Assembly: GCF_003790525.1 (NCBI RefSeq)
Contig: NZ_CP033635.1
Source of the DNA: Escherichia coli
GTDB lineage: Bacteria; Pseudomonadota; Gammaproteobacteria; Enterobacterales; Enterobacteriaceae
DNA: 64,000 nt
Direction: 5' to 3' (one strand)
Shown: positions 20,047 to 63,984 of the stretch, piece by piece
How the letters are laid out: each line of letters starts with the position of its first letter
How positions within the stretch are numbered: the first letter of the stretch is position 1
Program-made: the position numbers and the translations under genes
Notes under the pieces: generated by a model
Database searches by the model: none
What the model was told of the DNA's origin: nothing
What the model saw: only the letters and a program-made list of their open reading frames with translations

Positions 20047-20451
20047 ATGCAAGCGCGAGTGAAGTGGGTCGAAGGGTTAACTTTTCTGGGCGAATCCGCC
20101 TCTGGTCACCAGATTTTAATGGACGGCAACTCAGGCGATAAAGCACCAAGTCCGATGGAAATGGTGTTGATGGCGGCGGGGGGTTGCAGTGCCATCGATG
20201 TGGTTTCTATCCTGCAAAAAGGGCGTCAGGATGTGGTCGATTGTGAAGTAAAATTGACCTCTGAACGCCGCGAAGAGGCACCACGCCTGTTTACGCACAT
20301 TAATCTGCATTTTATCGTCACCGGTCGCGACCTGAAAGACGCAGCGGTTGCGCGTGCGGTTGATCTCTCTGCTGAGAAATATTGTTCAGTGGCGTTGATG
20401 CTGGAAAAAGCGGTGAATATTACTCACTCGTATGAAGTGGTTGCCGCGTGA
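20047..20451 (+). CDS. yhfA: YhfA, OsmC-family protein
   Basis: 134-aa ORF divergent from crp. Confidence 0.9.
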   Translation: MQARVKWVEGLTFLGESASGHQILMDGNSGDKAPSPMEMVLMAAGGCSAIDVVSILQKGRQDVVDCEVKLTSERREEAPRLFTHINLHFIVTGRDLKDAAVARAVDLSAEKYCSVALMLEKAVNITHSYEVVAA

Positions 20452-20505
20452 TTTAACTATCCCGTTGTGAAGCCGGATAGTATTTTATCCGGCGTAATAG
20501 CAGAG

Positions 20506-21375
20506 TTACTCGATTTTCTTTCCTTCCATCAATCGTTGCACCAGCGGCAGCATAATTAATTCCATTGCCAGACCCATTTTGCCGCCGGGCACCACTAACG
20601 TATTGATGTGGGAAATGAATGAGCCCTGCAACATCGCCAGCAGCCAGGGGAAATCGATCCCTTCCAGATTACGAAAATGGATCACCACAAAGCTTTCATC
20701 CAGCGACGGGATACCTTTTGCCGCGAACGGGTTTGAGGTGTCGACGGTGGGAACGCGCTGGAAGTTAAGATGGGTGCGGGAAAACTGCGGTGTGATGTAG
20801 TTGATATAGTCTTCCATTGAGCGCACTACTGAGTCCATCACTGCTTCTCGTGAGTGCCCGCGCTCGCTGGTGTCGCGGATCAATTTTTGAATCCACTCAA
20901 GGTTAACGATAGGCACCACGCCGACCAGTAAATCCACATGCTGCGCAACGTTATGCTGTGGCGTGACGACGCCGCCGTGTAAACCTTCATAAAACAGTAC
21001 ATCAGTGGGTTCCGGTAAAGGTTGCCATGGGGTGAATGTCCCCGGTACCTGATTCCACGGTACGGCTTCGTCGTAGGTATGCAGATATTTGCGAGATTTC
21101 CCTTTGCCGCTCTGACCGTATTCAATGAAGGTTTGTTCCAGCAGGCCGAAGTCGTTCGCTTCGGGGCCGAAGTAGCTGATATGCCGCCCGGCGTCGCGCG
21201 CTTTGCGGATCGCCATGTCCATTTCCGGGCGGGTGTAACGGTGAAAACTGTCACCTTCCACCTCGGCTGCATGCAGATTTAACTGCGCGAATATTTTACG
21301 AAACGCGAGGCTGGTGGTGGTGGTCCCCGCGCCGCTGGATCCTGTTACCGCAATGACCGGATGTTTGGCAGACAT
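20506..21375 (-). CDS. prkB: Phosphoribulokinase homologue
   Basis: 289-aa ORF with P-loop GSSGAGTTT. Confidence 0.9.
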   Translation of the reverse strand: MSAKHPVIAVTGSSGAGTTTTSLAFRKIFAQLNLHAAEVEGDSFHRYTRPEMDMAIRKARDAGRHISYFGPEANDFGLLEQTFIEYGQSGKGKSRKYLHTYDEAVPWNQVPGTFTPWQPLPEPTDVLFYEGLHGGVVTPQHNVAQHVDLLVGVVPIVNLEWIQKLIRDTSERGHSREAVMDSVVRSMEDYINYITPQFSRTHLNFQRVPTVDTSNPFAAKGIPSLDESFVVIHFRNLEGIDFPWLLAMLQGSFISHINTLVVPGGKMGLAMELIMLPLVQRLMEGKKIE

Positions 21376-21428
21376 AGTAACTCCATGACTTAGCTATCAT
21401 TATTATCTCGTCCGCCGACGGTTGCAGG

Positions 21429-21647
21429 TTATTCGCGAAACTGACTGCGCGGCATGATATTGACCGTTTCGTGCAGCTCCGACCATACCAGCACCGCTTC
21501 TCCGCACTGTAGCTGGCGTTTGACGTCGGCGACTTTCTGTTCAAGTGTACGCTCATGTTCACCATAATCGGTGCCTTCACGTAACACAAAGCTTTCAATT
21601 AAATTTTCCAGCGTTTCGGGGGAGAGGTCTTGCCACGGAATCAACAT
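21429..21647 (-). CDS. yheU: YheU, small protein of unknown function
   Basis: 72-aa ORF; start overlaps yheT stop by 7 nt. Confidence 0.85.
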
Positions 21648-22663
21648 GATTTCGCCTCCAGATACGTTGTTAACCAGTCAGGAATGCGTGACTCCAGCCA
21701 CATTTGCGGATGAAGTAACGTACCGCCAATAAAGCCAACATGACCGCCATGTTCAGTCAGTTGATACTCCACCTGCGGGGGGAGACTTTCCGGTTTCGGG
21801 ATCACCTGATGATCCATAAACGGATCGTCTTTGGCGTGAATAATCAGCGTCGGTTTGGCGATCTGGTTCAGCATCGGCATGGCGCTACACTGACGATAAT
21901 AGTCGATAGCGTCAGCGTAGCCGTGAATTCTGGCGGTGATCAGATCGTCAAATTCACGGATGCGACGTACCGATTTTAACTGTGCGAGATTAATCGGCAG
22001 CGTACCGGGATAGGCTGCCAGTTTGCGCGCAGCATTGGCTTTTAACAGGTTCAGCAAGTAACGCTGATAAACGCGGGAAAAGCCCTTTTCCATATGATAA
22101 CTACAGGCTTCCAGCATAAATGGCGCGGAGACAATTACCGCTGCATCAATCGGGAGGTTATTACCTTCTTTTGCCAGCAAACAGGCGAGCATATTACCGC
22201 CGAGCGAATAGCCGACGGCAGCCGTTGGCGCATGTCCAAATTCGCGCTGCAGCCAGCGTAAAAACCAGCTGGCGTCTTCGGTTTCGCCCGAATGGTAAAT
22301 GCGGTGCATACGGTTTGGTTCACCGCTGCATCCGCGAAAATGCATCACCACGCCCAGCCAGCCGCGTTTTTGCGCCGCCTCGACCAGACCGTGGGCGTAA
22401 GGGCTATTGAGGCTGCCCTCCAGCCCGTGAAACACCACTAAACGCGGTTTATGGTTCGCCTGGGCAGGGTCTTCACTCCATGCGAGATCGACAAAATCGC
22501 CGTCGGGCAACTCCAGCCGCTGCCAGTACGGGGTGAATTTCACCTTGCGACGAAACAGACGCGGCAGCATGGTTTGCAGATGACAATTGCTAAAGCCGCG
22601 CATAGGGGTGAATTCAGCACTGCTGCTGAATTCATTGGCATCGGTCGTCGTTATCTGCGCCAT
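21641..22663 (-). CDS. yheT: YheT, alpha/beta-fold hydrolase
   Basis: 340-aa ORF with GYSLGG nucleophile-elbow motif; start overlaps yheS stop. Confidence 0.9.
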
Positions 22664-24576
22664 CAGTTGCTTTGGCCTTCCAGCAGCATCTGCTCAAGCT
22701 GCTCCTGGGCTTCCAGCCACGCCATTTCGCACTCTTCCAGGCCGGATTTGGCGCTGGCTTGCTGTTGCAGGCAGGCGGTCAACTCCGCTTTACGGCTCTG
22801 ATCATACAGTTCGCTGTCGCCGAGTTTCTCTTCCGCCTGCGCCAGTTGCGCGTTCAGCTTCTCCATCTCTTTTTCCAGACGGGCAATCTCTTTACGCAGT
22901 GGCTGGGTTTGCGCACGCAGCTCCGCTTCCCGACGCTTCTGATCTTTACGTGCCTGGGCGCTGTTCGCGTTCTCTTTTGGCGCTTCGTCGGTCTGGTTTT
23001 CCTGCTTTTGTACGTCGCTCAACCACTGTTGATAATCTTCCAGATCGCCGTCGAACGGTTCGACTTTACGATCGTGAACCAGGTAGAGATCGTCAGTGGT
23101 GGAACGCAGCAAATGACGGTCGTGCGAGACGACAACCAGCGCACCTTCGAACTCGATTAATGCTTCGGTGAGTGCCTGACGCATGTCGAGGTCAAGGTGG
23201 TTGGTCGGTTCGTCGAGCAGCAGCAGATTCGGACGCTGCCAGACAATTAATGCCAGCACCAGGCGGGCTTTTTCCCCACCGGAGAAGCGGCGTGTTTCTT
23301 CGGTTACTTTATCGCCCTGGAAACCAAAGCCGCCGAGGTAGTCACGCAGTTTTTGCTCCAGCTCCTGCGGCGCTAAACGTGCCAGATGTTGAATAGGCGA
23401 TTCGTCGGCGCGCAGGTATTCCAGTTGATGCTGGGCGAAGTAACCGAGCTTGATCCCTTTTGCCAGACCAATTTCACCGCTGACTGGCGCAAGTTCGCCG
23501 GCTAACAGTTTGATTAATGTCGATTTACCCGCGCCGTTGCGGCCTAACAGACCAATGCGCGAGCCGGGGACCAGATTCAGTTTAATCGAGTCGAGAATAA
23601 TGCGATCACCATAGCCCGCACTGACTTTTTCCATCTTCAGTAACGGATTTGGCAGGCTTTCCGGCGCGCGGAAGCTAAAGCGGAACGGGTTGTCGACGTG
23701 TGCGGGGGCAATCAGCTCCATACGCTCGAGCATCTTAATGCGGCTCTGGGCCTGCTTCGCTTTGGTGGCTTTGGCACGGAAACGGTCGATATAACTTTGC
23801 AGATGCGCCACGCGTTCCTGCTGGCTTTCATACATCGCCTGTTGCTGCGCCAGACGGGTGGCGCGCTGCACTTCAAATGAGCTGTAGTTACCGGTGTACT
23901 CGAACATGCTTTGTTGTTCGATATGAATGATTTTATCGACGATCGGATCGAGGAAGTCGCGGTCGTGAGAGATCAGGATCAGCGTGCCCTGATAGCTCTT
24001 CAGCCATTTTTCCAGCCAGATAACGGCATCGAGATCGAGGTGGTTAGTCGGTTCGTCGAGCAGCAGCAAGTCTGAACGGCAAATCAGCGCCTGAGCAAGG
24101 TTAAGGCGCATACGCCAGCCACCGGAGAAATCACTTACCGGACGCTCCAGTTGTTCGTTGCTGAAACCGAGGCCGTGCAGCAGGCTGGCGGCGCGGGAGC
24201 GAATACTCCATGCGTCGATAGCATCCAGCTTGCCATGAATGGTCGCAATGGCGTGACCGTCGTTACGTTCGTTGGCGTCGTATAGCTGCGCTTCCAGTTG
24301 ACGATATTCACGGTCGCCGTCAATGACATATTCCAGCGCCGCTTGCGGTAACGCTGGTGTTTCCTGATTCACCCACGCCAGTTGCCAGCTTCCCGGAAAG
24401 GTGTAGCTGCCGCCGTCGGCGCTGATTTCATTTTTCAGCAATGCCAGCAGGGTAGATTTACCACAGCCGTTTTTACCCACCAGGCCGACTTTCTGCCCGG
24501 GGTTGATGGTGGCGGTGGCATTATCCAGCAGGACGCGCACGCCGCGACGAATTTGTAACGAGGAGAAAACAATCAT
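22663..24576 (-). CDS. yheS: ABC-F family ATPase YheS (two ABC domains, no TM domain)
   Basis: 637-aa ORF with two Walker A motifs (GKNGCGKST, GRNGAGKST) and a coiled-coil C-terminus. Confidence 0.95.
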   Translation of the reverse strand: MIVFSSLQIRRGVRVLLDNATATINPGQKVGLVGKNGCGKSTLLALLKNEISADGGSYTFPGSWQLAWVNQETPALPQAALEYVIDGDREYRQLEAQLYDANERNDGHAIATIHGKLDAIDAWSIRSRAASLLHGLGFSNEQLERPVSDFSGGWRMRLNLAQALICRSDLLLLDEPTNHLDLDAVIWLEKWLKSYQGTLILISHDRDFLDPIVDKIIHIEQQSMFEYTGNYSSFEVQRATRLAQQQAMYESQQERVAHLQSYIDRFRAKATKAKQAQSRIKMLERMELIAPAHVDNPFRFSFRAPESLPNPLLKMEKVSAGYGDRIILDSIKLNLVPGSRIGLLGRNGAGKSTLIKLLAGELAPVSGEIGLAKGIKLGYFAQHQLEYLRADESPIQHLARLAPQELEQKLRDYLGGFGFQGDKVTEETRRFSGGEKARLVLALIVWQRPNLLLLDEPTNHLDLDMRQALTEALIEFEGALVVVSHDRHLLRSTTDDLYLVHDRKVEPFDGDLEDYQQWLSDVQKQENQTDEAPKENANSAQARKDQKRREAELRAQTQPLRKEIARLEKEMEKLNAQLAQAEEKLGDSELYDQSRKAELTACLQQQASAKSGLEECEMAWLEAQEQLEQMLLEGQSN

Positions 24577-24703
24577 AAGGCGCCGTATGTTCAGACTATG
24601 TTAACTTATCATTATGATAATGTAATGTATGGGCGAGCTGCCGCACCGGGCGCAATGGTAGCCCAAAACAGCGACTATACACAAAAACCATACCGGGAGG
24701 GGG

Positions 24704-25258
24704 ATGATGTCTCAGCCAGCGAAAGTTTTGCTGCTGTATGCCCATCCGGAATCTCAGGACTCGGTGGCAAACCGGGTACTGCTTAAACCGGCCACGCAGC
24801 TCAGCAATGTTACCGTGCACGACCTTTATGCGCACTATCCCGACTTTTTTATTGATATCCCTCGTGAGCAGGCATTACTGCGCGAGCACGAGGTGATTGT
24901 CTTTCAGCATCCTCTTTATACCTATAGCTGCCCGGCGCTACTGAAAGAGTGGCTGGACCGGGTATTAAGCCGTGGTTTTGCCAGCGGACCGGGGGGAAAC
25001 CAACTGGCGGGAAAGTACTGGCGTAGCGTGATTACCACCGGCGAGCCGGAAAGTGCTTACCGTTATGACGCGCTGAATCGCTACCCGATGAGCGATGTGC
25101 TGCGCCCCTTTGAACTGGCGGCGGGCATGTGCCGGATGCATTGGTTGAGTCCCATCATTATTTACTGGGCGAGACGGCAAAGCGCACAGGAGCTGGCGAG
25201 TCACGCCAGAGCCTACGGTGACTGGCTGGCAAATCCGCTGTCTCCAGGAGGCCGCTGA
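24704..25258 (+). CDS. kefG: KefB ancillary protein KefG (flavodoxin-like quinone oxidoreductase fold)
   Basis: 184-aa [23 protein letters not shown]...; stop overlaps kefB start. Confidence 0.95.
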
Positions 25259-27063
25259 TGGAAGGTTCCGATTTTTTACTCGCAGGAGTGTTGTTTCTCT
25301 TCGCGGCGGTGGCTGCGGTGCCGCTGGCATCGCGGCTGGGTATTGGCGCTGTGTTGGGATATTTGCTGGCAGGGATTGCAATTGGCCCGTGGGGGCTGGG
25401 TTTTATTAGCGACGTCGATGAGATCCTCCACTTTTCGGAACTCGGCGTGGTGTTCCTGATGTTTATCATCGGCCTGGAGTTGAATCCCTCCAAGCTTTGG
25501 CAATTGCGGCGTTCGATTTTTGGCGTAGGCGCGGCACAGGTGCTGTTAAGCGCGGCGTTGCTGGCGGGATTATTGATGCTGACCCATTTCTCATGGCAGG
25601 CGGCGGTGGTCGGTGGCATTGGCCTTGCGATGTCTTCAACTGCAATGGCGTTGCAATTGATGCGTGATAAAAGGATGAATCGCAGCGAATCCGGCCAGTT
25701 AGGTTTCTCGGTACTGCTGTTTCAGGATCTGGCGGTGATCCCGGCACTGGCGTTAGTGCCGTTGTTGGCGGGTTCGGCAGACGAACATTTCGACTGGATG
25801 AAGATCGGCATGAAGGTGCTGGCGTTTGTCGGCATGCTGATTGGCGGGCGCTATTTACTGCGTCCGGTATTCCGTTTTATTGCAGCTTCTGGTGTGCGGG
25901 AAGTGTTCACCGCCGCGACGCTGCTGCTGGTGTTGGGTTCCGCATTGTTTATGGATGCGCTGGGGTTGTCGATGGCGCTCGGTACGTTTATTGCGGGTGT
26001 GCTACTGGCGGAAAGTGAATATCGCCATGAACTGGAAACGGCTATCGATCCCTTCAAAGGCTTGCTGCTCGGTTTGTTCTTTATCTCTGTCGGCATGTCA
26101 CTCAACCTCGGGGTGCTTTATACCCATCTGTTGTGGGTAGTGATAAGTGTGGTTGTGCTGGTGGCGGTGAAAATTCTCGTGCTGTATCTGCTGGCGCGAT
26201 TGTATGGCGTGCGTAGCTCAGAGCGGATGCAGTTTGCTGGCGTGTTGAGTCAGGGCGGTGAGTTTGCCTTTGTCCTCTTTTCTACCGCTTCTTCACAACG
26301 CTTATTCCAGGGCGACCAGATGGCGCTGTTGCTGGTGACGGTGACGCTTTCCATGATGACCACGCCGCTGCTGATGAAGCTGGTAGATAAATGGCTATCC
26401 CGCCAGTTTAACGGACCGGAAGAAGAAGACGAAAAACCATGGGTCAACGATGATAAACCCCAGGTCATTGTCGTGGGCTTTGGGCGTTTTGGTCAGGTGA
26501 TTGGTCGTTTGCTGATGGCAAATAAAATGCGCATTACTGTACTGGAGCGGGATATCAGTGCCGTTAACCTGATGCGCAAATATGGCTACAAAGTTTATTA
26601 CGGCGACGCCACGCAGGTAGATCTTTTACGTTCTGCGGGTGCAGAGGCCGCTGAGTCTATCGTCATTACCTGTAACGAGCCGGAAGACACCATGAAACTG
26701 GTGGAAATATGCCAGCAGCACTTTCCGCATTTGCATATTCTTGCGCGAGCGCGCGGACGTGTGGAAGCGCATGAGTTATTACAGGCAGGGGTGACGCAGT
26801 TTTCCCGTGAAACATTCTCCAGTGCGTTAGAGCTGGGGCGCAAGACGCTGGTCACGCTTGGCATGCATCCGCATCAGGCACAGCGGGCGCAACTGCATTT
26901 TCGCCGCCTGGATATGCGGATGCTGCGAGAGCTCATCCCAATGCATGCCGATACCGTACAAATTTCTCGCGCCAGGGAAGCCCGACGCGAACTGGAAGAG
27001 ATTTTCCAGCGTGAAATGCAACAAGAACGACGCCAGCTGGACGGCTGGGATGAATTTGAGTAG
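25258..27063 (+). CDS. kefB: Glutathione-regulated K+ efflux system KefB
   Basis: 601-aa ORF, N-terminal transmembrane antiporter domain plus C-terminal KTN/RCK domain. Confidence 0.95.
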
Positions 27064-48205: not shown

Positions 48206-48279
48206 GTATGTCTGTGCGTTTCCATTTGAGTATCCTGAAAACGGGCTTTTCAGCATGGAACGTACATATTAAATAGTAG

Positions 48280-48645
<366 letters not shown>

Positions 48646-61996: not shown

Positions 61997-63538
<1,542 letters not shown>

Positions 63539-63606: not shown

Positions 63607-63683
<77 letters not shown>

Positions 63684-63725
63684 AATTTGCACCGCAAATT
63701 TGAAGAGGTTTTAACTACATGTTAT

Positions 63726-63801
63726 GGGGCTATAGCTCAGCTGGGAGAGCGCCTGCTTTGCACGCAGGAGGTCTGCGGTTCGATCCCGCATAGCTCCACC
63801 A
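63726..63801 (+). tRNA. alaT: tRNA-Ala (anticodon TGC), rrn spacer tRNA
   Basis: GGGGCTATAGCTCAGCTGGGAGAGCGCCTGCTTTGCACGCAGGAGGTCTGCGGTTCGATCCCGCATAGCTCCACCA. Confidence 0.97.
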
Positions 63802-63984
63802 TCTCTGTAGTGATTAAATAAAAAATACTTCAGAGTGTACCTGCAAAGGTTCACTGCGAAGTTTTGCTCTTTAAAAATCTGGATCAAGCTGAAAATTGAA
63901 ACACTGAACAACGAAAGTTGTTCGTGAGTCTCTCAAATTTTCGCAACACGATGATGAGTCGAAAGAAACATCTTCGGGTTGTGA

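What the first reader, a model, noticed from the sequence alone, without database searches (positions are those of the whole stretch)
21429..24576. yheS-yheT-yheU: an ABC-F ATPase translationally coupled to a hydrolase and a small protein
YheS has two ABC domains and no membrane domain, the ABC-F family of ribosome-associated factors. Its stop overlaps the yheT start by 1 nt and the yheT stop overlaps the yheU start by 7 nt. Such coupling implies co-function, but YheT (alpha/beta hydrolase with GYSLGG) and YheU have no defined role. The cluster sits next to the ribosomal operons and could encode a translation-quality or rescue module.
Basis: partly seen in the sequence, partly recalled or inferred. 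Interest (0 to 1): 0.4.

Follow-up and report, generated by a model that had tools for sequence, protein, structure and literature searches.

The report
E. coli yheS-yheT-yheU gene cluster
The three overlapping E. coli genes are real and already annotated, but only the hydrolase and the small protein stay coupled across bacteria, so their overlap with the ribosome factor YheS is a recent Escherichia accident and not evidence of shared function.

Summary
On the minus strand, yheS (22663-24576), yheT (21641-22663) and yheU (21429-21647) overlap by 1 nt (TGATG) and 7 nt (ATGTTGA). The window is E. coli, and 5423 of 5426 complete genomes carry the array.

The genes and the operon are already known. 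YheS is a solved, ribosome E-site ABC-F factor that releases SecM arrest. A 2023 preprint already notes that yheT and yheU are co-transcribed with it.

The inference from coupling to co-function does not hold for yheS.
- Among 80 Enterobacterales species, the yheS/yheT overlap occurs only in E. coli and E. albertii.
- Elsewhere the two genes are 97 nt to more than 7 kb apart, often with unrelated genes on the opposite strand between them.
- Close relatives keep a promoter-like spacer before yheT that Escherichia has deleted.

By contrast, yheT and yheU overlap or lie within 5 nt in all 78 species that have yheT. prkB follows yheU within 250 nt in 75 of 80. More distant lineages keep yheT-yheU without yheS.

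The conserved unit is therefore yheT-yheU(-prkB): a Ser-Asp-His alpha/beta-hydrolase, a small orphan-fold partner and a kinase homologue, all of unknown substrate. The ribosomal operons lie about 6.7 kb away, beyond ten unrelated genes. Interest is low.

The parts
22663..24576 (-). yheS: ABC-F ATPase (637 aa) that binds the ribosomal E site
   Evidence: ORF. NCBIfam PRK10636 scores 1405 bits and ribo_prot_ABC_F 431 bits (cutoff 380). The identical protein is solved on the 70S ribosome (9vvi, 9nlh). SecM-arrest release is reported in PMC11162784 and PMC13249984.
22661..22665 (-). yheS stop / yheT start junction TGATG (1 nt shared)
   Evidence: Read directly. Present only in E. coli and E. albertii among 80 Enterobacterales species. 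The alignment with close relatives shows that a spacer of about 95 nt was lost.
21641..22663 (-). yheT: alpha/beta-hydrolase (340 aa) with predicted triad Ser153-Asp280-His308 and an HGLEG oxyanion motif
   Evidence: Pfam Abhydrolase_1 at 3.3e-41 and NCBIfam PRK10985 at 648 bits. S153, D280 and H308 are invariant in 33 orthologues. The AF2 model has pLDDT 90.6. Foldseek matches lipases, esterases and monoglyceride lipases at 11-17% identity.
21641..21647 (-). yheT stop / yheU start overlap ATGTTGA (7 nt), preceded by a GGAGG Shine-Dalgarno-like motif inside yheT
   Evidence: Read directly. The junction overlaps in 53 and has a gap of 0-5 nt in 25 of the 78 Enterobacterales species that have yheT. 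The commonest form is the 4-nt ATGA/GTGA overlap, seen in 51 of the 91 loci tabulated. It overlaps by 4 or 7 nt in 7 of 8 Alteromonadales-like loci.
21429..21647 (-). yheU: UPF0270 small acidic protein (72 aa) with the conserved REGTDYG motif
20506..21375 (-). prkB: phosphoribulokinase homologue, 53 nt downstream of yheU on the same strand; the more conserved neighbour of yheT-yheU
   Evidence: ORF, annotated. It follows yheU within 250 nt in 75 of 80 Enterobacterales species and in Alteromonadales-like loci. AFDB entries carry the name 'Hydrolase ... functionally coupled to Phosphoribulokinase'.
24577..24703 (.). Divergent kefG / yheS intergenic region, the presumed site of the yheS promoter
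   Evidence: Gene positions. The consensus scan found only a plus-strand promoter-like site here, and no yheS promoter was identified.

Best explanation
This is the known E. coli array yheS-yheT-yheU-prkB. YheS is a ribosomal E-site ABC-F factor; that is shown experimentally in the literature. The unit that evolution keeps together is yheT-yheU, usually with prkB. YheT is a serine alpha/beta-hydrolase, most likely an esterase or lipase-type enzyme. Its gene is translationally coupled to that of YheU, a small orphan-fold protein. I infer that YheU is a stoichiometric partner or regulator of the hydrolase and possibly of PrkB. The 1-nt yheS/yheT overlap is a secondary, Escherichia-specific fusion. 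A spacer of about 95 nt, which in close relatives carries a -10-like element upstream of yheT, was deleted, and the yheS reading frame now runs 3 codons further into the yheT start. In E. coli the four genes are therefore probably co-transcribed, and yheT translation is coupled to yheS, but as an accident of genome compaction rather than a sign of shared biochemistry. Shown here: gene identities, overlaps, the invariant triad and the comparative gene-order statistics. Inferred: a YheT-YheU physical partnership, esterase chemistry, and independence from YheS.
For: Comparative gene order in 80 Enterobacterales species: yheT/yheU overlap or lie within 5 nt in 78 of 78; yheS/yheT overlap in only 2 of 78 (both Escherichia); prkB lies within 250 nt of yheU in 75 of 80. 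The genes inserted between yheS and yheT are unrelated and often on the opposite strand: a LysE-family exporter, nadV/prs/NtrR, PhzF, an ankyrin protein, glycosyltransferases, malonate decarboxylase and murQ-murP. In three close relatives with a roughly 98-nt spacer, that spacer contains GGTATAGTAG, which Escherichia lacks. Non-enteric lineages keep yheT-yheU without yheS (L083, L091/92, L097). One of them has the order swapped to yheU-yheT-prkB with the overlap retained (Alginatibacterium, L093). An Alteromonadales-like clade has yheS coupled to a DUF2390 gene instead, followed by yheT-yheU-prkB. AFDB names for YheT orthologues read 'functionally coupled to Phosphoribulokinase', and there is one 402-aa fused YheT-YheU ORF. 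The Ser/Asp/His triad is invariant, and the confident model has a lipase/esterase-like fold. An internal RpoD promoter between yheS and yheT is listed in PMC3946193.
Against: yheS and yheT-yheU-prkB have been co-directional neighbours since before Enterobacterales and the Alteromonadales-like clade split. A preprint states that they are frequently adjacent in other organisms, so a loose functional or regulatory link cannot be excluded. No experiment here addresses YheT substrate, YheT-YheU binding or ribosome association. YheU also occurs without YheT (L064, L077, L082, L085, L090, L094, L105-107, L110), so it is not an obligate YheT subunit. The non-enteric sample is small (about 10 lineages) and mostly lacks taxonomic labels.
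Confidence: 0.75

Rival explanations
1. One reading: YheS, YheT and YheU work together as a translation-quality or rescue module. For example, YheS pulls the P-site tRNA CCA end out of the peptidyl-transferase centre, and YheT, helped by YheU, hydrolyses the exposed ester.
For: The genes overlap and are reported as co-transcribed in E. coli. [quoted passage not shown] In one lineage YheU sits next to rlmM, a methyltransferase that modifies the peptidyl-transferase centre of 23S rRNA (L094).
Against: The overlap is restricted to Escherichia, and opposite-strand genes interrupt the pair in most Enterobacterales. Several lineages keep yheT-yheU without yheS. Purified YheS alone releases SecM arrest in a reconstituted PURE system (PMC11162784). 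YheT matches only generic lipase/esterase folds and no Pth, ArfB or release-factor family. There is no GGQ motif in YheT or YheU (translations).
Confidence: 0.06
2. There is regulatory co-expression only. The four genes share a stress-responsive promoter in E. coli and act in parallel, unrelated processes (translation on one side, lipid or small-molecule ester metabolism on the other), with some selective benefit from being induced together.
For: Co-transcription is reported, and yheS expression is described as generally repressed and possibly stress-induced. The co-directional arrangement is long-standing in two clades.
Against: Most Enterobacterales break co-transcription with opposite-strand inserts without losing either side. 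An internal promoter is reported in E. coli.
Confidence: 0.12
3. No functional relationship exists between any of the genes, including yheT and yheU. All overlaps are neutral by-products of genome compaction inside an old synteny block.
For: The whole region fkpA-slyX-yheV-yheS...prkB-yhfA-crp is syntenic between clades. YheU occurs without YheT in several lineages.
Against: The yheT/yheU junction stays within 5 nt in 78 of 78 Enterobacterales, while the neighbouring yheS|yheT junction is repeatedly broken. The pair survives loss of surrounding synteny and even a swap in order. YheU lies next to a different alpha/beta-hydrolase in L095. A fused ORF exists.
Confidence: 0.07

Closest known systems
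E. coli YheS, and the ABC-F translation factors EttA, Uup, YbiT and the ARE-ABCFs
   Same: The window protein is YheS itself, a near-identical full-length match to the solved chains 9vvi and 9nlh. It has two ABC domains, an inter-domain PtIM linker and a C-terminal coiled-coil extension.
   Different: Nothing differs for YheS. Known ABC-F factors act alone on the ribosome, and no ABC-F is known to need a hydrolase partner.
Alpha/beta-hydrolase fold esterases and lipases (for example monoglyceride lipases and aryl esterases). From my own knowledge, UniProt places YheT in the 'AB hydrolase 4' group with ABHD1/ABHD3 and yeast Eht1/Eeb1.
   Same: YheT has the canonical fold, a GxSxG nucleophile elbow, an HG oxyanion motif, a Ser-Asp-His triad and a helical cap.
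   Different: Identity to any solved structure is only 11-17%. The substrate is unknown. Relationship to the ABHD1/3-Eht1 subgroup was not tested here. Unlike those enzymes, the gene is coupled to a UPF0270 gene.
UPF0270 / PA3463 (PDB 1y0n)
Translationally coupled operon pairs in general (stop/start overlaps such as ATGA and TGATG)
   Same: The yheT/yheU junction behaves like a classical coupled pair that encodes interacting products: it is conserved across an order and beyond.
   Different: The yheS/yheT junction looks the same in E. coli but is not conserved. In another clade yheS has the same kind of overlap with a DUF2390 gene instead.

Membership tests
ABC-F ATPases (YheS) | Two tandem ABC nucleotide-binding domains in one polypeptide, matching ABC-F models | tested here: met
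   NCBIfam PRK10636 scores 1405.5 bits (cutoff 917) and ribo_prot_ABC_F scores 431 bits (cutoff 380).
ABC-F ATPases (YheS) | No transmembrane domain; a soluble factor that binds the ribosomal E site | tested here: met
   The same sequence is solved on the ribosome (9vvi_W and 9nlh_H, E = 0). E-site binding is described in PMC13249984 and bioRxiv 10.1101/2023.06.15.543498.
Alpha/beta-hydrolase fold (YheT) | Profile match plus GxSxG nucleophile and conserved Asp and His | tested here: met
   Abhydrolase_1 at 3.3e-41. G151-Y-S153-L-G155, D280 and H308 are invariant in 33 sequences. The model has pLDDT 90.6 and Foldseek probability 1.0 to lipases and esterases.
AB hydrolase 4 subgroup (ABHD1/ABHD3, Eht1/Eeb1) | Closer sequence relationship to those proteins than to other alpha/beta-hydrolases | not tested
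   This is recalled from UniProt family assignment only. The top 50 AFDB50 hits were all bacterial YheT orthologues, and no eukaryotic sequence was compared.
Peptidyl-tRNA hydrolases / ribosome rescue hydrolases (Pth, ArfB, release-factor-like) | Match to Pth or RF-1 domain models, or a GGQ motif | tested here: not met
   The NCBIfam scan of YheT returns only PRK10985 'hydrolase', and YheU returns only YheU-family models. There is no GGQ in either translation.
UPF0270 / YheU family | Full-length match to PF06794 and the 1y0n fold | tested here: met
Functionally coupled operon (yheS with yheT-yheU) | Adjacency or coupling retained across lineages once the surrounding synteny decays | tested here: not met
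   The overlap occurs in 2 of 78 Enterobacterales. Opposite-strand inserts are common. Lineages L083, L091/92, L093 and L097 lack yheS within the DNA held: about 7 kb upstream in L091/92 and L097, about 6 kb in L093, and only 1.6 kb in L083.
Functionally coupled operon (yheT with yheU) | Adjacency or coupling retained across lineages once the surrounding synteny decays | tested here: met
   The two genes lie within 5 nt in 78 of 78 Enterobacterales. They overlap in L083, L086-L089, L091-L093, L096 and L097 and in 7 of 8 loci. The order is swapped but still overlapping in L093.
Anti-phage defence systems | Match to PADLOC models | tested here: not met
   YheT, YheU and PrkB have no hits. YheS has only generic ABC/AAA ATPase matches.

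The most novel reading that the evidence does not exclude
Despite the weak gene-order support, YheT (with YheU) could act downstream of YheS on stalled ribosomes, at least in the clades where yheS-(DUF2390)-yheT-yheU-prkB are co-directional. One possibility is that it cleaves the peptidyl-tRNA ester once YheS has displaced the CCA end from the peptidyl-transferase centre. That would be a new ABC-F-dependent ribosome-rescue hydrolase.
Probability: 0.04. Interest if true: 0.75.

Novelty: already known. Interest (0 to 1): 0.2.

Why it matters
The physiological role of YheS is still open, and operon partners are an obvious place to look for clues. This analysis says yheT and yheU are poor clues for YheS. 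The overlap that makes them look like partners is an Escherichia-specific deletion, so experiments built on that premise are likely to give null results. It also redirects attention to a different, consistently conserved unit, yheT-yheU-prkB, whose three products are all uncharacterised in a model organism. Finally, it warns that polar effects of yheS deletions in E. coli could reflect loss of yheTU-prkB expression rather than loss of YheS.

Tried and rejected
- **YheU fusions as Rosetta stones.** No YheS-YheU or YheT-YheU fusion appeared among the top 150 representatives. P0196 (4021 aa) is a mucin-like low-complexity false positive. P0212 fuses YheU to what I judge by eye to be an N-terminal SLOG-like domain (no NCBIfam model matched it), a single case.
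- **Fold searches for functional hints.** YheT matches only generic lipases and esterases. YheU matches only its own family.
- **A profile search of PDB with the YheT alignment** found only distant alpha/beta-hydrolases.
- **Promoter and terminator consensus scans of 20400-25300** gave no more sites than shuffled sequence, so they say nothing about internal signals.
- **PADLOC** gave no defence-system match.
- **Rfam on the whole window** found nothing in this region.
- **Literature.** I found no functional study of YheT, YheU, UPF0270, DUF2390 or E. coli PrkB. Two apparent 'yheT' hits turned out to be empty in the main text.
- **Whether DUF2390 is the universal partner of yheS.** Rejected: only the 19 close DUF2390 homologues follow yheS, and about 40 distant ones have no ABC-F upstream.
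- **Taxonomic labelling of distant YheU representatives** mostly failed because they are metagenomic singletons.
- **The genome-contig scan** returned only Enterobacterales among its best 80 loci, so the non-enteric sample had to be assembled from 12 individual look-ups.
Full report
**1. The observation**

The window is Escherichia coli. The 3.4-kb stretch is 100% identical to strain SMS-3-5, and 5423 of 5426 complete E. coli genomes hold at least 80% of it at 95% identity or more.

On the minus strand the ORF list and the raw sequence give four genes in a row:
- yheS, 22663-24576 (637 aa)
- yheT, 21641-22663 (340 aa)
- yheU, 21429-21647 (72 aa)
- prkB, 20506-21375, 53 nt downstream of yheU

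GYSLGG is at YheT residues 151-156. RefSeq annotates the same genes.

Short stop/start overlaps are common in bacteria, so they are not remarkable on their own. The str and S10 ribosomal operons begin about 6.7 kb beyond yheS, with ten unrelated genes between.

**2. What the three proteins are**

*YheS.* It passes the equivalog model for YheS and the ABC-F model. The same protein has been solved on the ribosome (9vvi, 9nlh). The literature shows that:
- purified YheS, acting alone in a reconstituted system, releases SecM-arrested ribosomes (PMC11162784, PMC13249984, bioRxiv 10.1101/2023.06.15.543498).

*YheT.* It is an Abhydrolase_1 protein. In 33 orthologues down to 39% identity, Ser153, Asp280, His308 and the HGLEG motif are invariant. 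The AlphaFold model is confident (pLDDT 90.6). It resembles lipases, aryl esterases and monoglyceride lipases at 11-17% identity, with no close solved relative.

I found no functional study of YheT, YheU or E. coli PrkB. A 2023 preprint already states that yheS is co-transcribed with yheT and yheU, and that these genes are often adjacent to yheS elsewhere.

**3. Does coupling imply co-function?**

I fetched 80 loci, one per Enterobacterales species, anchored on YheU. I then located YheS, YheT, PrkB and KefG in them.

| Junction | Result in 80 Enterobacterales species |
|---|---|
| yheT / yheU | 78 have yheT directly upstream: 53 overlap, 25 have a gap of 0-5 nt; 2 lack yheT |
| yheU to prkB | prkB within 250 nt in 75 |
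| yheS / yheT overlap | 2 species only (E. coli and E. albertii) |
| yheS to yheT, up to 100 nt | 3 |
| yheS to yheT, 101-400 nt | 2 |
| yheS to yheT, 401-1000 nt | 16 |
| yheS to yheT, 1-6.7 kb | 22 |
| yheS not in the upstream DNA held | 33 |

In 26 of those last 33 loci, more than 5.8 kb of upstream DNA was available.

The intervening genes are unrelated cargo, frequently on the opposite strand:
- a LysE-family exporter
- an NAD-salvage set (nadV, prs, NtrR)
- PhzF
- an ankyrin protein
- LPS glycosyltransferases
- the malonate decarboxylase operon
- murQ-murP

In the three close relatives with a spacer of about 98 nt, that spacer carries a conserved GGTATAGTAG (-10-like) element just upstream of a conserved MAQIT start. 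Escherichia lacks this segment, and its yheS frame runs three codons further into the yheT ATG. The E. coli overlap is therefore a recent deletion-fusion.

A genomic SELEX study also lists an internal RpoD promoter between yheS and yheT (PMC3946193).

**4. Beyond Enterobacterales**

Twelve look-ups of more distant YheU homologues gave about ten lineages.

| Arrangement | Loci |
|---|---|
| fkpA-WD40-slyX-yheV-yheS-DUF2390-yheT-yheU-prkB (Psychrobium-like) | L088/89 |
| Same block, with two opposite-strand genes before yheT | L086/87, L096 |
| yheT-yheU overlapping, no yheS in the upstream DNA held (about 7 kb; only 1.6 kb in L083) | L083, L091/92 (Alkalimonas), L097 (Rheinheimera-like) |
| Order swapped to yheU-yheT-prkB, still overlapping, no yheS nearby | L093 (Alginatibacterium) |
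| YheU without YheT: beside SLT_4/ligA, DjlA, rlmM, or a different PGAP1-like alpha/beta-hydrolase | L082, L090, L085, L094, L095 |

AFDB entries for YheT orthologues carry the name 'Hydrolase, alpha/beta fold family functionally coupled to Phosphoribulokinase'. One 402-aa Serratia rubidaea entry appears to be a fused YheT-YheU ORF.

When the surrounding synteny decays, yheT-yheU (and often prkB) stay together and yheS does not.

**5. A side test on yheS's own partner**

In the Alteromonadales-like clade the yheS stop overlaps, or lies within 3 nt of, the start of a DUF2390/TIGR02444 gene. This is the same geometry that E. coli shows with yheT.

A metagenome scan anchored on DUF2390 returned 61 loci:
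- All 19 close homologues that had upstream sequence have yheS directly upstream.
- Most of those then continue with yheT-yheU-prkB.
- Four have yheS-DUF2390-yheU-prkB with no yheT.
- The roughly 40 distant DUF2390 homologues have no ABC-F upstream.

That association is also clade-limited. It nevertheless shows that 'overlap with yheS' has been held by different genes in different lineages.

**6. Interpretation**

The best-supported picture has three parts.
- YheS is a stand-alone ribosomal ABC-F factor.
- yheT-yheU(-prkB) is a separate conserved module: a serine esterase/lipase-type hydrolase, a small partner and a kinase homologue, all of unknown substrate.
- Escherichia has fused the two units by deleting the spacer.

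A loose link cannot be excluded, because the two units have been co-directional neighbours since before the enteric and Alteromonadales-like clades split. However, that neighbourhood lies inside a much larger synteny block (fkpA...crp), and the yheS|yheT boundary is exactly where the block is repeatedly broken.

- YheT has no similarity to Pth, ArfB or release-factor families.
- Neither YheT nor YheU has a GGQ motif.
- YheS works alone in vitro.

**7. Verdict**

The genes and the operon are already known, and the functional inference is not supported for yheS. The useful residue is the robust yheT-yheU(-prkB) coupling, plus a caution about polar effects of yheS deletions. Interest is 0.2. The rescue-hydrolase reading keeps about 4% probability.

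Noticed in passing
L004, L010, L026, L028, L042, L046, L048, L052, L071, L073 (the region between yheS and yheT): The yheS|yheT boundary is a recurrent insertion site in Enterobacterales. Inserts include a 200-aa LysE-family exporter on the opposite strand (the roughly 700-nt class), nadV-prs-NtrR, PhzF, an ankyrin protein, LPS glycosyltransferases, the malonate decarboxylase operon and murQ-murP.
   Followed up: partly
L086:3977-4513, L088:6485-6949, L096:3963-4490, and L098-L110, L134, L135, L143, L145, L149: A DUF2390/TIGR02444 gene overlaps or abuts the yheS stop in an Alteromonadales-like clade, and tblastn did not detect it in any of the 80 Enterobacterales loci. About 40 distant DUF2390 homologues (25-38% identity) have no ABC-F upstream. 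I found no literature on this family.
   Followed up: yes
L105, L106, L107, L110; also L064 and L077: yheT is missing while yheU and prkB are kept: yheS-DUF2390-yheU-prkB in the metagenomic loci, and Acerihabitans and Xenorhabdus budapestensis among the enterics. YheU is therefore not strictly dependent on YheT and may relate to PrkB as well.
   Followed up: partly
L093:6190-7381 (Alginatibacterium sediminis): The gene order is inverted to yheU-yheT-prkB with a 23-nt overlap, followed by yhfA (OsmC) and crp as in E. coli. No yheS lies within about 6 kb upstream.
   Followed up: partly
L095:4250-8239; L094:8001-9362: In one lineage YheU lies between a lipase plus lipase-chaperone pair and a PGAP1-like alpha/beta-hydrolase of a different family. 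In another it lies 70 nt upstream of rlmM (23S rRNA C2498 2'-O-methyltransferase). Each is a single observation.
   Followed up: no
P0212 (271 aa); AFDB A0A3S4FWK0 (402 aa, Serratia rubidaea): There are two fused forms. One has an N-terminal domain that I judge by eye to be SLOG or molybdenum-carrier-like (no NCBIfam model matched it) joined to a C-terminal YheU domain. The other looks like a YheT-YheU single ORF. Either could be real or a frameshift or assembly artefact.
   Followed up: no
L086:4864-6946, L096:4796-6890, L097:4909-6950: A GMC oxidoreductase plus a protein of about 165 aa are transcribed divergently from yheT in three non-enteric lineages.
   Followed up: no
window 20472-20493: The hairpin GCCGGATA-AAATAC-TATCCGGC sits in the 54-nt gap between the convergent prkB and yhfA genes. 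It may be a bidirectional terminator that ends the yheS-prkB unit. It has no strong T-run, and the consensus scan did not call it.
   Followed up: no
window 21646-21673 (minus strand): The only minus-strand sigma-70-like match in the region (TTAACA-16-AATCAT) lies inside the 3' end of yheT, just before the yheU start. The number of such matches is no higher than in shuffled sequence.
   Followed up: no
window 48210-48321, 61997-63538, 63607-63798, 63869-63977: Rfam hits elsewhere in the window are the Alpha operon RBS element, a 16S rRNA gene, two tRNAs and StyR-44. All are expected features of this E. coli region.
   Followed up: no
P0196 (4021 aa): A mucin-like eukaryotic protein scored 1.9e-12 against YheU through nine repeated low-complexity stretches. 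It is a compositional false positive in the representative search.
   Followed up: yes
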